The notes under the pieces: model-generated
What the model saw: the letters and a program-made list of their open reading frames with translations, nothing else
What the model was told of the DNA's origin: nothing
The model's database searches: none
Assembly: GCF_006345805.1 (NCBI RefSeq)
Contig: NW_021834694.1
Coordinates: 1-45,793, forward strand
Direction of reading: 5' to 3'
Length of the DNA: 45,793 nt
DNA from: Octopus sinensis
Lineage: Eukaryota
Shown here: in pieces, positions 587 through 18,775 of the stretch
How positions within the stretch are numbered: the first letter of the stretch is position 1
Layout: every line of letters begins with the position of its first letter
Made by a program: the position numbers and the translations under genes

Positions 587-631
587 AAAATCTGTTACTC
601 TGAGTTTTCGTTGCCGTTCATCAGACGTTTT
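587..631 (-). ncRNA. Mirror copy of the hammerhead motif (slightly degenerate)
   Basis: The reverse complement reads aaaacgt CTGATGA acggcaacg AAAAC tcaga GTA acagatttt. Confidence 0.5.
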
Positions 632-1253
632 GCTAGAATGGAACTTATATATCAATTCAATCTATACTCTTACAAACGCTACACCTTTAAAGAAATGACT
701 TGTTTGATTGCCCTTTGAAAAACGGTCAATCTTCGCGCATAAACAAAAAGGTCAAAAATATATGTATATATATATAAAAAAACTTATAAAATTATAAATC
801 CGAGGAAAAAACCTATTGCCGTTAATGAAGACAGTGCACTTATGCATAGAAATTAAACCTGTTATAAATAATGCAATACATATTTATATAAAATCTACAT
901 ATATATCAACATACACAAAAGGATGTTGATATATATATGTAGATTTTAATATAAATATTATATATATATATGTAGATTTTAATATAAATATTATTGCAGT
1001 ATTTATAACATGTTTAATTTCTATGCATTAATTTTCACTGTCTTCATTACCGGCAATAGGTTTTTCCTCGTTTTTTCCTCGATTTTATAATTTTTATAAG
1101 TTTTTTAATATATATAACATATATTTTGACCTTTTGTTTATCGCTCGAAGATTGACCGTTTTTTCTAAAGGGGCAATCAAAAGTCCATTTCTTTTTAAAG
1201 GTGTAGCGTTTGTAAGAGTATAGATTGAATTGATATATAATTCCATTCTAGCA

Positions 1254-1299
1254 AAAACTGTCTGATGACGGCAACGAGAAACTCAGAGTAACAGATTTT
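1254..1299 (+). ncRNA. Minimal type I hammerhead ribozyme motif
   Basis: aaaactgt CTGATGA cg-gcaa-cg a GAAAC tcaga GTA acagatttt. Stem I is ctgt/acag, the catalytic boxes are intact, stem III is the palindrome ACTC-A-GAGT, and the cleavage triplet is GUA. Confidence 0.65.
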
Positions 1300-1481
1300 G
1301 TTGAATTTTCTGCTGCTTAATAAAGTATATTAGATATATATATATATTATATATTATATATATATATATATAGATATATACAATAATATATATAGTATAT
1401 ATATATACATTATATATATATATATATATATATATATATATATATATATATTATATATATATATATATATATATATATATA

Positions 1482-2271
1482 AACTAGAAAAGTCAGAAAA
1501 TGGCAAGTATGTCCCACATCAACTAAACGAGATTTAAAAAAAAAAAAACAGACGCCTCGAAGTGTGCTCCTTATTGCTTTCTCGACTGGAAAAATACCAT
1601 GTTTGCTTCAAATCATTATTCGTAATGAGAAATGGATACTCTTTGACAACAGCAGGAGAACAGGACAGTGATTAGATGCATGAGAGTCACCTAAACACTA
1701 CCCAAACCTAGCATTGCACTCTAAAATGTTATTGGTAACTGTATGGTAGTCTGCGAAGGGAGTTATTCATTATTCATTATTGTAGCAAGGGAAAACGGAA
1801 ACATCAGTATCGTATTGCCAGGAAATTGATTGTATGCATGAGAATTTGAAAAAGAAGCAACCCAGACTAGTGAATAGAGATGGCCCAATTTTGCTCCACG
1901 ACAATGCACGTCCTCACACTCCTTAAGCTACGATCCAAAAGTTGCAAAGCCTGAATTAGGAGAATTTGCAAAATTCTACCTACTCCCCTAATACCTCTCC
2001 TACTGATCATCACTTATTTAAGCATTTTGAGCATTTCATAAGCAATAAAACATTCTTAAATAGAGAAGAGGTAACTGAAGCATTTAGACAGTTTTATCAC
2101 AGCAAAAGATGAATTTTTTTTTAAAGATGGAATATATGACATAGAGAAACGTTGGATAAACATCATAAATGAACATGGATCATACTTTGATTAAATAAAT
2201 CAGTTCTCTAACACTTCTGAAACATCTTATAGTTACCTTTCAAATATGACATTTCGTGTGAAACAACCTAA
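1482..2271 (+). mobile_element. Decayed 5'-truncated mariner (DD34D) transposon
   Basis: Translates with stops and frameshifts to VPHQL, NEKWILFDN, GPILLHDNARPH (HDNARPH at 1897-1917), YSPNTSPTDHHLF and GSYFD* (stop ~2194). Right TIR-like end whose reverse complement is ttaggttgtttcacacgaaatgtc, followed by TA. Confidence 0.92.
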
Positions 2272-2385
2272 TATATATATGTATATATACATATATATAT
2301 ATTATTTTCTGTATATATATATATATTTATATACACATATATCAAGTGTGAGAAAAAGGGGAAAATATTTATGCATATATACATA

Positions 2386-3003
2386 CAGGGAACTGTACTG
2401 GGACCACTACTGTTTGTAGCGACTCTCTCAGACATGACTTCATTCGTACAGTCAGCCATTGTTACTCTTATGATACAAAAGTATCTCAGATGGTCAAGGA
2501 CCCTGATGACATAGTAAAACTGTAAAATTCAATATACAAATGGGTGGATGAAAATTACACTGCACTGTCGACCCACAAAAAGACTACAATTAGGATACAT
2601 AGGACCAGGGGGCAGTGCAATCCCAGAATTACAATCGGTGCACGACCTGGGAATCCACATGAGTAGTGATGCAACATTTTATGAGCACATTGCGAAGATG
2701 GCAACACTGTGCAAGCGAGTTGCTGGATGAATCCTTAGATTATTCAGAAACAGAAATAAGGATACCTTGCTACACATATGGAGGACATTTGTCCTCAGTT
2801 GTCTGGATTACTGCTCCTAGCTGTGGTCGCCGCAGAGCGTCAAATTAGTGGTGGAACTTGAGGCAATCCAGCGCCACTTCACAAAGATGAACTCGGTGAA
2901 CAGATGAGCTACAGGGAGAGGCTACAAGAACAGAAACTCTACTCCCTGGAGAGAAGACAAGAAAAGTATGCAGTGATATATATATATGGAAGATTATGGA
3001 AAA
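2386..3003 (+). mobile_element. Decayed CR1/L2(Jockey-group)-like LINE reverse transcriptase fragment
   Basis: QGTVLGPLLF at 2386, a DTK remnant, HDLGIHMSSDATFYEHI, LDYCS*LWSP, LEAIQRHFTK and LYSLERR; contains stops and frameshifts. Confidence 0.88.
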
Positions 3004-3026
3004 TTTGAAACTGACTTATTGGAAGT

Positions 3027-3069
3027 CCACCTGAAGATTGTCGATCAAGACAAGAAACAATTGTAGTGG
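3027..3069 (+). ncRNA. Minimal type I hammerhead ribozyme motif (canonical core)
   Basis: ccac CTGAAGA ttgtc-gatcaa-gacaa GAAAC aatt GTA gtgg. Stem I is ccac/gtgg, stem II has 5 bp, and the stem III region ACAATTGT is palindromic. Confidence 0.8.
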
Positions 3070-16490: not shown

Positions 16491-16670
16491 TATAAATACA
16501 AAACAAAACAAAACAAAACAAGCTAAATGATCGAATTGACTGCTATATCCTTTTGGCAATACTTTCAGACGGTGACTAGAAAACAGAAAACACGTGATTC
16601 ACATATGTACCAGCCACGGTATATGAGATTAACCTGATTGGAAGACAAGCAGATCAAGGAAAGTTGTCTA

Positions 16671-17212
16671 GTTATTATTATTATTATTATTATTATTATT
16701 ATTATTATTATTATTATTATTATTATTATTATTATTATTATTATTTTATTATTATTATATTATTATTATTATTATTACTATTATTATTATTATTATTATT
16801 ATTATTATTTTATTATTATTATTATTTTATTATTATTATTATTATTATTATTTTATTATTATTATTATTATTATCATTATTTTTATTATTATTATTATTT
16901 TATTATTATTATTATTATTATTTTATTATTATTATTATTATTATTATTATTTTATATTATTATTATTATTATTATTTTATTATTATTATTATTATTTTAT
17001 TATTATATTATTATTATTATTATTATTATCATTATTATTATTATTATTATTTTATTCTTATTATTATTATTATTATTTTATTATTATTATTTTTATTTTA
17101 TTATTATTATTATTATTATTATTATTATTTTATTATTATTATTATTATTATTATTATTTTATATTATTATTATTATTATTATTATTATTATTATTATTAT
17201 TATTATTATCAT
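16671..17212. repeat. Long interrupted (ATT)n microsatellite
   Basis: Directly visible. Confidence 0.97.
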
Positions 17213-17495
17213 CATCATCAAAAACAAGAAGATCGTTGTGCACTAATAGACATCTCGAACCCTTCAAACATCGTTCAGTGGAAAAACTATTAAAATCGAA
17301 GGAGCTTGAAGATGATATAAACAGGTTATGGGATATGTGAAAGCAGAAATAACTGCATTAATAAATGGGGAACTTAGTATGATAACAGAAAATATAAACA
17401 AAGACCTAGACGTCATAACAGGTTTCATAACGTCCAAAATATATCTCTTCAAGGTACAAGTAATGGGCTACGCATGACAATATCACTCCAGTAAA
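17213..17495 (+). mobile_element. Possible decayed RLE-retrotransposon endonuclease fragment
   Basis: IIIKNK..CALIDISNP..NI..KIE pattern resembles the PD-(D/E)xK region of R4/Dong elements. Confidence 0.45.
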
Positions 17496-17557
17496 ATACC
17501 TGATATATAACACACTCTCAATATACAACACATACTCTAAGTAATAACCCCCGATTA

Positions 17558-17760
17558 AAATAACACGACCTATATTCTACATAATAATGCTCCAATTAAA
17601 TAACACAATCTATATTCTACATAATAACTACGCAATAAAATAACACATCAATAACTCTACCCTGCCCTATCCATAAAATAAGTCAAACCGTACTTTACTA
17701 AATAACCGTCTAATAAAGTAACAACATGTGCTCTAAACAATAACCACCGAATAACGTAAC
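17558..17760. repeat. Degenerate ~40-bp minisatellite
   Basis: aaataacacgacctatattctacataataatgctccaatt / aaataacacaatctatattctacataataactacgcaata / aaataacacatcaataactctac... Confidence 0.65.
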
Positions 17761-18049
17761 GTCTAGAACTCATAGTCAACATTACAACACCAACATCTTA
17801 TACAACACATATTCTACAGAGCTTCTACTCATATCCATTAATGCTACATAAATCACCTAACAAATATGGAAACACAAAAACAACCAAATACCACAATGCA
17901 AACGATATATAAATTTTAATTTATAAAAGGAATAACGAAACATCATCAGAAGCAATAAATCAAATTTTGTAATAAAGCAAAATTGATTCAATTCAACAAA
18001 GATGAGTATGTAACCCCAAAAGACAACGTGGCCCTCACCCCAGACTTAC

Positions 18050-18092
18050 GGACGTGTAAGCGGACAGTGCAGCAAAACTCCACATAAAACGT
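18050..18092 (-). CDS. Candidate 43-nt exon of an unidentified host gene
   Basis: Minus strand reads tttttgtcattgtattttcAG|ACGTTTTATGTGGAGTTTTGCTGCACTGTCCGCTTACACGTCC|GTAAGT. Open in all three frames (e.g. RFMWSFAALSAYTS). Confidence 0.4.
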
Positions 18093-18590
18093 CTGAAAAT
18101 ACAATGACAAAAATGATAGTAAGAAGAGGAGGTGAAGATGGAGGAAGAAACGATGGCGGTGGAGCGGTAGAGAAACGGCAGCCTGTGTTGAGATGATTTC
18201 TGGTTATATATAAAAAGAAATTAATGTTAGGTTATGATTAATGTAGAAATATGGTACGATATCCTATATTCATGATTAAAAATGATATATCAGCGCTGGC
18301 TGGCTGGCTGGCAAAACTTTGTGTATATATCATTATATGTGCTTGTGTGGATGATGTAGATGGCTTATGTGTGTATATGTATGTATCGTTGAGTGTGTAT
18401 ATGCGTGCACATGTCAGTGTTGTGTATGTCTGTGTGTGTGTCGTGAGTGAGTTTGAGGTGAAGACTCGTCACCTGCTTTTTCACTTTAAGTAAAATAGAA
18501 AATATCAGATGTAGACATATTTTCTTTATCAATAAATTATGCATGCATCTTATATATGTATATATATATATATATATATATATATATATA

Positions 18591-18775
18591 TAGTTAATCC
18601 AAACATGAACAAAGAGAAAACACAACAACGCGAGGACGTGGAACAAGTATAGGAGGATTTAACGTTTCGAGCTGAGCTCTTCGTCAGAAACATAGAAAAA
18701 GAAAGGTCCAAGGAAGGGACGACGAAAGAAAATCGCCAACGATACACATGCGGTCACATATTGAAACGACTGGAA
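18591..18775 (-). mobile_element. Short Penelope-like terminal unit with minimal hammerhead (18658-18690)
   Basis: The reverse complement reads ttt CTGACGA a gagc-tca-gctc GAAAC GT T aaa. Adjacent to (TA)n. Confidence 0.65.

What the first reader, a model, noticed from the sequence alone, without database searches (positions are those of the whole stretch)
587..18690. Several unrelated short, mostly (TA)n-flanked units each carry a minimal hammerhead ribozyme with a palindromic stem III
Seen in the sequence: type I hammerhead folds at 1254-1299(+)/587-631(-), 3027-3069(+), 5937-5972(+)/6393-6428(+), 9528-9585(-) and 18658-18690(-). Their flanks and stems share no obvious sequence, apart from a gagc/gctc stem II in two of them. 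Yet all keep CUGxxGA...GAAAC...GUH, some in decayed form, and a tiny self-complementary stem III (ACTCAGAGT, ACAATTGT, ACGT, ACGATTCGT). Established: such minimal hammerheads occur in Penelope-like pseudo-LTRs and animal retrozymes and are proposed to cleave as dimers. Inference: this genome hosts multiple families of non-coding, ribozyme-bearing, TA-microsatellite-associated retroelements at high density. If the window is intronic, they could cleave host pre-mRNA.
Basis: partly seen in the sequence, partly recalled or inferred. Interest (0 to 1): 0.8.

Follow-up and report, generated by a model that had tools for sequence, protein, structure and literature searches.

The report
Hammerhead-bearing Penelope-like ends, some spliced
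The small ribozyme-shaped motifs are real, but four of the five are ends of known Penelope-like jumping genes; one family also leaves many short copies with its intron precisely removed, which likely means these elements copy their sense RNA, a point left open in the literature.

Summary
The hammerhead motifs are there and exceed chance: 5 intact folds against a shuffle mean of 0.16, plus two decayed copies.

They are not mainly independent non-coding elements. Units A (560-1325) and B (3002-3157) are pseudo-LTR pieces of two Hydra-clade Penelope-like elements (PLEs). C (5874-6515) and E (18593-19010) are pseudo-LTRs of Neptune-clade PLEs. All four have RT plus GIY-YIG ORFs upstream elsewhere in the genome. 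Only D is ORF-less: a 560-bp tandem unit with a compensated U3-A8 core. Hammerheads in PLE ends, (TA)n targeting and an octopus Hydra family are published.

Less expected:
1. The window's B copy lacks a 1.8-kb GT-AG intron. About half of B copies are such spliced leaders, which stop at one start site and usually fold back.
2. One B insertion carries a host mRNA with 29 exons joined.
3. Family C has about 16,000 copies with U at core position 6.

Points 1 and 2 argue for a sense RNA template, against a published antisense hypothesis. Cleavage and expression are untested, and nothing shows the window is intronic.

The parts
560..925 (-). Family A (Hydra-clade PLE) pseudo-LTR, inverted 5'-truncated arm; its hammerhead (587-631) is decayed; 3' end joins (TA)n
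   Evidence: 87% to the other arm; junction read against family copies
923..1325 (+). Family A pseudo-LTR, direct arm (head-to-head with the first; 3-nt overlap at 923-925, 33-bp tandem duplication 929-994)
   Evidence: full element in L175 and L174
1258..1294 (+). Hammerhead A: stem I 4 bp, core CUGAUGA, 2-bp stem II, 9-nt palindromic stem III, predicted cut after 1290; one base short of the family form
   Evidence: 1,841 exact family matches
3002..3157 (+). Family B (Hydra-clade PLE) spliced leader copy: 16 nt of exon 1 (3002-3017) joined to exon 2 at 3017|3018; 1.8-kb intron absent; 3' end joins (TA)n
3027..3069 (+). Hammerhead B: canonical core CUGAAGA, 5-bp stem II, 8-nt palindromic stem III, predicted cut after 3065
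   Evidence: 750 exact 43-nt matches, 0 control
5874..6060 (+). Family C (Neptune-clade PLE) pseudo-LTR fragment; hammerhead 5937-5972 with family-wide A6U core (CUGUNGA)
6389..6515 (+). Second family C fragment with a decayed hammerhead
9244..9619 (-). Family D: part of a 560-bp ORF-less tandem unit; hammerhead 9528-9585 with compensated U3-A8 core, UUCG-capped stem II, 9-nt palindromic stem III
18593..19010 (-). Family E (Neptune-clade PLE) 3' UTR end and pseudo-LTR; hammerhead 18658-18690, core CUGACGA, stem III ACGU; upper bound approximate

Best explanation
Four of the five hammerhead units are pseudo-LTR pieces of Hydra- and Neptune-clade Penelope-like retrotransposons that end in (TA)n, the fifth is an ORF-less tandem unit likely moved by such an element, and the spliced, fold-back copies indicate that the element's enzyme likely copies the sense transcript up to its 5' end. 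Inferred cycle: transcription starts at an initiator-like site just upstream of the hammerhead in the pseudo-LTR. In family B the cap-proximal intron is spliced. The GIY-YIG domain nicks (TA)n, and RT primes on one of two TA-like patches downstream of the hammerhead (pseudo-LTR end or tail end). It then either copies the 3' pseudo-LTR, whose intron stays unspliced, and truncates, or copies a short leader to the RNA's 5' end. The new cDNA end often folds back, giving head-to-head repeats, or jumps to another RNA. The hammerhead likely cleaves weakly and only as a dimer, or serves mainly as a structural signal. Shown: linkage to ORFs, structure of copies, splice junctions, core variants. Inferred: start sites, order of steps, any cleavage.
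For: A: family ORF pieces in 13 of 19 other loci; intact 711-aa ORF between pseudo-LTRs in L175, partial tandem plus inversion in L174. B: Hydra-type RT and EN upstream of the hammerhead, 5,708-bp tandem spacing in L209. E: same-strand match downstream of a Neptune EN in 10 of 30 loci, one being the seed. C: Neptune RT/EN upstream on the same strand in 5 of 30 position-ordered loci. (TA)4 follows at fixed distances in B 30 of 30, C 27 of 30, D 27 of 30 loci; window background 0.21-0.33. B intron: GTAAGT donor and TTTTAG acceptor, 1,768-1,826 nt in 5 copies. Of the first 100 of 2,408 matches, 49 are unspliced, 47 spliced, 4 other (my count). All 48 spliced junctions then held match at most 23 nt of exon 1, and 41 have an inverted arm. 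99 of 100 listed spliced copies end at or within one base of that start (my count). Three linked haplotypes each occur spliced and unspliced. A: 54 of 100 listed copies stop within about 8 nt of stem I (my count); fetched examples include fold-back palindromes. A host mRNA with 29 exons joined lies between two B arms, on the strand of the arm it reads into.
Against: No RNA data: no run on record as RNA holds the stretch and no reads were laid, so the start sites, splicing and cleavage are read from DNA copies only. One of 100 spliced copies extends about 90 nt upstream of the junction. No spliced class was seen for A or D. ViennaRNA gives hammerhead stems I/II probabilities of 0.09 or less for the window's B, C and E contexts and 0.28/0.25 for window A. 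No autonomous partner was found for D in 50 loci. Clade calls rest on motifs and by-eye comparison with a published alignment, not on a tree.
Confidence: 0.85

Rival explanations
1. All units are independent non-coding retrozymes that amplify through circular RNA and cleave efficiently.
For: D is ORF-less, forms head-to-tail arrays of a 560-bp unit (up to about 2.6 units) with one hammerhead each, and folds stably as a circle (z = -5.0 against 25 shuffles). Most C and E copies are short.
Against: A, B, C and E are colinear 3' ends of RT plus GIY-YIG ORFs. Short A and B copies are inverted, not tandem.
Confidence: 0.08
2. The short intron-less B copies descend from a few master mini-elements, each made once, and now multiply on their own, so splicing of the template is rare.
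For: One fold-back junction recurs in about 11 pairs among 100 listed matches (my count); short copies are 96-99% alike.
Against: Many different junctions occur, and three haplotypes each have both forms. Even a master needs one spliced sense template at its origin.
Confidence: 0.2
3. PLEs use an antisense template with self-priming (hypothesis of PMC3846280), and the spliced copies and the host-mRNA capture are side products of another RT such as a LINE.
For: Explains head-to-head repeats and intron retention in long copies. LINE fragments are common in this window (class names recalled).
Against: An antisense RNA cannot lose a sense GT-AG intron. Spliced copies end at the same two PLE-specific 3' points in (TA)n, with the tail on one arm. 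The captured mRNA is framed by B arms with the same asymmetry.
Confidence: 0.07
4. The hammerheads in the Neptune families are non-catalytic relics or protein-binding folds. This is compatible with the best explanation and concerns function only.
For: Family C has A at core position 6 in only 337 of 16,085 matches. 68 of 100 listed E-type motifs have U4C (my count), including elements with intact 1,008-codon frames. Changes at 6 and 4 lower activity in other hammerheads (PMC3088659, PMC7151607).
Against: Position 7, the free position, takes all four bases and tracks subfamilies while U6 stays fixed. D keeps the 3-8 pair by compensation (43 of 47 motifs). U4C is reported to keep enough activity in vivo in a viroid (PMC3088659).
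Confidence: 0.4

Closest known systems
Hydra-clade PLEs, including Hydra-1_Obim of Octopus bimaculoides (Craig et al. 2021, PMC8557442)
   Same: C-terminal GIY-YIG without CCHH, RWK/KWK and DKT motifs, CxCX5C linker, (TA)n targets, type I hammerhead with palindromic stem III. Family A shares stem I with Hydra-2_aMil and stem III with Penelope-3_HM (supplement).
   Different: A and B hammerheads and proteins differ from Hydra-1_Obim by eye. B has a 3.4-kb 3' region with a 1.8-kb intron, an Asn-rich insert and many spliced copies. Most A copies read CxF at the linker. The paper describes Hydra elements as generally under 3 kb.
Neptune-clade PLEs
   Same: DKG motif, CX4CxxC linker, CCHH endonuclease, partial tandems, hammerhead with ACGU stem III in the pseudo-LTR.
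   Different: Lineage-wide core changes: A6U in C (about 16,000 exact matches) and U4C in most E-type motifs; long CA-rich 3' UTR.
Minimal PLE hammerheads (Cervera and De la Pena 2014, PMC4209133)
   Same: Extra base after A9, palindromic 15.2-16.2, U3-A8 covariant, opposite-strand pairs 100-700 bp apart, mostly solo copies, predicted dimer activity.
   Different: A6U is not among the variants in the two of four parts read. That paper found only low in vitro activity and none for a monomer.
Drosophila virilis Penelope (PMC2377424, PMC4209133)
   Same: Start site in the pseudo-LTR, short first exon, intron ending next to hammerhead helix I.
   Different: Its intron is 75 bp and the passages read describe retention in genomic elements; family B has a 1.8-kb intron and about half of its copies lack it.
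Non-LTR retrozymes of animals (PMC7229834)
   Same: Family D: ORF-less tandem unit, one type I hammerhead per unit, stable circular fold.
   Different: Larger unit (560 bp against about 300 bp), PLE-type inversions, two 3' ends and (TA)n targets, U3-A8 core; circular RNA not tested.
Host-gene capture by Adineta vaga Penelope (PMC3846280)
   Same: Host coding sequence framed by pseudo-LTRs; Asn-rich insert in the ORF.
   Different: There the captured gene kept its introns; here 29 exons are joined.

Membership tests
Hydra-clade PLE (families A, B) | Single ORF with RT and C-terminal GIY-YIG endonuclease | tested here: met
   A: 711 aa in L175. B: RT and EN in L211/L212, broken by frameshifts. 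Pfam gave no RT hit for A or B; the call rests on motifs and on tblastn to a related 708-aa family.
Hydra-clade PLE (families A, B) | RWK motif and DKT in place of DKG | tested here: met
   A: RWK and DKT (DMT in L175). B: KWK and DKT.
Hydra-clade PLE (families A, B) | CxCX5C linker; CCHH absent; CxxC and CxH near the C-terminus | tested here: met
   B has CxCX5C. A has CxF in most copies and CxC in L174. No CxxC between the GIY and YIG equivalents in either.
Hydra-clade PLE (families A, B) | (TA)n targets, pseudo-LTR with hammerhead, tail on one end | tested here: met
Hydra-clade PLE (families A, B) | Placement in the Hydra clade on an RT tree | not tested
   No named reference sequences were held; compared by eye with the published alignment.
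Neptune-clade PLE (families C, E) | DKG motif, CX2-5CxxC linker, CCHH endonuclease at the C-terminus | tested here: met
   L297-L299 show all three; the C-linked L293 shows DKG, and EN/RT match at 47-69%.
Neptune-clade PLE (families C, E) | Placement in Neptune on an RT tree | not tested
   Motif comparison only.
Type I minimal hammerhead | Core C3 U4 G5 A6 N7 G8 A9, GAAA, U16 H17 | tested here: met
   Met by A, B and window E; D has the known U3-A8 covariant.
Type I minimal hammerhead (family C) | A at position 6 | tested here: not met
   U in 99 of 100 listed; A in 337 of 16,085. It is filed as hammerhead-shaped, not as an active member.
Type I minimal hammerhead | Palindromic stem III that pairs only in a dimer | tested here: met
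   Monomer probability 0.02 or less; self-duplex -7.4 (A), -6.4 (B), -7.7 (D), -1.7 (C, E) kcal/mol.
Type I minimal hammerhead | Site-specific self-cleavage | not testable with these tools
   Needs an in vitro assay.
Non-LTR retrozyme (family D) | ORF-less tandem monomers with one hammerhead each | tested here: met
   560-bp unit, no PLE hit in 50 loci.
Non-LTR retrozyme (family D) | Abundant circular RNA | not testable with these tools
   No RNA evidence was obtained.
Non-LTR retrozyme (families A, B, C, E) | No associated coding element | tested here: not met
   All four are linked to PLE ORFs.

The most novel reading that the evidence does not exclude
Penelope-like elements copy a capped, sense RNA. 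The pseudo-LTR intron is spliced only when it is next to the cap and stays in the 3' copy that rebuilds the element, which explains intron retention without an antisense template. Run-off at the cap and cDNA fold-back produce a class of hammerhead mini-palindromes and occasional processed host genes. Tens of thousands of copies spread with impaired cores, so the hammerhead works chiefly as a cis-acting fold.
Probability: 0.45. Interest if true: 0.75.

Novelty: new variant of a known kind. Interest (0 to 1): 0.5.

Why it matters
The headline (many PLE hammerheads in TA repeats) is published. The added value is mechanistic. PLE template strand and intron retention were left open in PMC3846280 and PMC8557442. 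Family B offers young elements with a defined start site, a large intron and over a thousand estimated spliced copies, so the question can be tested by counting and by reporter assays. The A6U and U4C lineages are a natural test of whether PLE hammerheads must cleave. The processed host cDNA shows that PLEs can make ordinary-looking retrocopies.

Tried and rejected
- Rfam: only microsatellite-driven miRNA matches in the rows shown, and no hammerhead model in four targeted scans. These minimal forms fall outside the models.
- The repeat finder was swamped by simple repeats.
- Family B as a stand-alone fold-back MITE: first suggested by best-hit loci, dropped after position-ordered sampling showed long copies and an ORF.
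- Two B tail searches were uninformative: wrong stretch, no candidates.
- An intron in A or D next to the hammerhead: AG sites exist, but no spliced class appears in 100 listed matches each.
- An alternative register for the C core was rejected because position 4 would then take all four bases.
- An extra G copied from the cap was looked for; most Gs come from the inverted arm, so no claim is made.
- Host exons in the window: none recognised among 37 frames of 110 aa or more; no PLE ORF in the window.
- Expression: no RNA holder listed; no reads were laid, so this stays open.
- Homologue search for the A protein: 964 relatives at E 1e-50 or better, almost all unnamed, no clade label.
- Earlier scan findings: none.
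- Literature searches for spliced PLE copies, sense template or A6U found no such report; the library lacks most subscription papers, including Arkhipova 2003.
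Full report
Observation. A structural descriptor run on both strands of the whole window finds 4 strict and 5 relaxed minimal type I hammerheads, all within 1.2-18.7 kb. Local dinucleotide shuffles give means of 0.03 and 0.16, and none of 200 reaches the observed count (descriptor written after seeing the hits). 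The copies at 587-631 and 6393-6428 are decayed. Rfam does not recognise any of the four motifs scanned singly. The window is an entire 45,793-base contig of a 2.72-Gb assembly; no host exon was recognised. The organism is probably an octopus; this is my inference from repeat content and by-eye likeness to Hydra-1_Obim, not a tool result.

Copy numbers. Each unit is a repeat family. Exact pattern counts, all with 0 control matches: A 1,841, B 2,408, C 16,085, D 117, E-type 10,789. These are lower bounds and the patterns differ in strictness.

Family A. Of 19 other loci, 12 carry the family's endonuclease end and one more its RT. L175 holds an inverted pseudo-LTR, an intact 711-aa ORF and a direct pseudo-LTR; L174 is a partial tandem with an inverted piece. 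The protein has RWK, DKT, a CxCX5C-type linker (CxF in most copies), no CCHH, and C-terminal CxxC and CxH. These are the Hydra-clade marks in PMC8557442 (section 11). That paper's supplement lists Hydra-1_Obim with a hammerhead and (TA)n targets, and Hydra hammerheads with the same stem I or stem III as A. The window copy is a head-to-head pair of 5'-truncated pseudo-LTRs. In 100 listed matches, 54 stop within about 8 nt upstream of stem I, 45 continue and 1 is ambiguous (my count). Of eight such loci fetched, six are fold-back palindromes of about 240 bp with a 70-bp tail on one arm and two are single arms, all in (TA)n.

Family B. Best-hit loci looked like 300-bp fold-backs. Position-ordered loci showed a long upstream region, an endonuclease remnant about 3.5 kb upstream and finally a Hydra-type RT plus EN with an Asn-rich insert and a 5,708-bp tandem repeat. 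Long copies contain a GT-AG intron of 1,768-1,826 nt in five copies, ending 9 nt before stem I (two further copies have duplicated or altered donors). The window copy has the exact exon 1-exon 2 junction at 3017|3018. Of the first 100 matches, 49 are unspliced, 14 and 33 are spliced with two exon-1 variants, and 4 are other (my count); both variants occur before GTAAGT in long copies. All 48 spliced junctions then held match at most 23 nt of exon 1, and 41 have an inverted arm (some are two arms of one insertion). In a separate list of 100 spliced copies, 35 stop exactly at that base, 63 stop 1-6 nt short, one matches one base further and one extends about 90 nt from the junction (my count). 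The start base lies in an initiator-like TCACTT (consensus recalled). Three exon-1/stem-III haplotypes each occur spliced and unspliced. D. virilis Penelope has the same layout with a 75-bp intron (PMC2377424 passages; PMC4209133).

Captured host mRNA. At G000:C1:78.17-78.18 Mb, two inverted B arms frame about 5.5 kb of coding sequence with RCC1 repeats (HERC1-like by recall). It matches 29 exons of a gene spread over about 43 kb of C21 at 98.5-100% identity, joined without introns. It lies on the strand of the arm it reads into, and the tail is on one arm only.

Families C and E. A GIY-YIG fragment upstream of one E copy led to 150 scored matches. E sequence lies downstream on the same strand in 10 of 30 loci, one being the seed; loci reach only 1.5 kb. 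Full elements have 1,008-codon frames with DKG, CX4CxxC and CCHH, and hammerheads about 6.1-6.3 kb apart: Neptune marks. Neptune RT/EN lies upstream of C in 5 of 30 loci. In C, position 6 is U in 99 of 100 listed and A in 337 of 16,085, while position 7 is U 51, A 24, C 16, G 9 and tracks subfamilies. In E-type motifs position 6 is A in 100 of 100 and position 4 is C in 68 (my count). Published A6C and U4C variants have low activity (PMC3088659, PMC7151607; passages). A search for A6U found no hammerhead report.

Family D. A 560-bp unit occurs in head-to-tail arrays and inversions, ends at two points before (TA)n, and has no PLE hit in 50 partly overlapping loci. 43 of 47 distinct motifs have UUGACAA, the U3-A8 covariant known from Schistosoma PLEs (PMC4209133), with a G-U to A-U change in stem II. 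The circular fold has z = -5.0 against 25 shuffles. It works like a retrozyme; circular RNA is untested and its partner is unknown.

Mechanism. Shown: ORF linkage, two fixed 3' ends in (TA)n, precise intron loss, a sharp 5' boundary, fold-backs, and a processed host insert. Inferred: a sense transcript from an internal start is the template; the intron is removed next to the cap but almost never in the 3' copy, so new long copies keep it; the cDNA end self-primes or switches template. PMC3846280 (Discussion) proposed an antisense template to explain head-to-head repeats and intron retention and left the matter open; antisense RNA cannot account for the spliced copies. Against over-reading: there is no RNA evidence, only one family shows splicing, and a few master copies could explain part of the short class. 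Cleavage is uncertain. Stem III forms only between two molecules, and predicted stems I/II are favourable only for the A leader (0.77/0.74) and D (0.88/0.95), not for the window's B, C and E. PMC4209133 found no monomer activity and low dimer activity. Cutting of host pre-mRNA is therefore unlikely and unsupported here.

Papers seen. PMC8557442: abstract, sections 3 and 11, passages, supplement part 2 and search hits. PMC4209133: parts 1-2 of 4. PMC3846280: part 1 of 5, passages, Discussion. PMC7229834, PMC2377424, PMC3088659, PMC7151607, PMC13282606: passages only; the last reports recently active Penelope-like families in Octopus vulgaris and has no mention of hammerheads. Searches found no report of abundant spliced genomic PLE copies; unread supplements and subscription papers may hold one.

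Verdict. A real feature, mostly new families of known clades, with three variant traits worth follow-up. Interest 0.5.

Noticed in passing
L213/L214 (G000:C1:78168800-78184000): Processed cDNA of an RCC1-repeat gene (HERC1-like by recall), 29 exons joined, 98.5-100% identical to the parent on C21, between two inverted family B arms.
   Followed up: yes
L101-L130 (for example L112, L119): A further very young Hydra family with intact 708-aa ORFs (top hits 97-99% identical; 32,999 first-look candidates). Its hammerhead has a U4C core and the same stem III as family A.
   Followed up: partly
L211 7270-9063, L212 3570-5363: Family B ORF has an Asn-rich stretch of about 100 aa between RT and the linker, like the inserts reported in Adineta Penelope.
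   Followed up: no
L175 5420-7552; L174: Most family A copies read CxF instead of CxC in the linker, yet the family spread; L174 keeps the Cys.
   Followed up: no
L305 (G000:C2:13264855): The one spliced B copy in 100 that extends about 90 nt upstream of the junction; possibly an upstream start or rare splicing of the 3' copy.
   Followed up: partly
L314 (G000:C1:161795000-161801800): Two identical-type family A mini-palindromes 5.7 kb apart, perhaps a local duplication.
   Followed up: no
window 1500-2260, 2390-2980, 10330-10870, 12830-13510: Decayed mariner-like transposase and LINE fragments (class names recalled, not tested).
   Followed up: no
window 6790-7150, 11200-11740: Several copies of a tRNA-like SINE in both orientations (inverted repeats I1-I3; identity as SINE recalled).
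   Followed up: no
L101 (G000:C3:74339576-74342939): PLE ends of different families often abut in one (TA)n tract, for example family A tail-to-tail with the young Hydra family.
   Followed up: no
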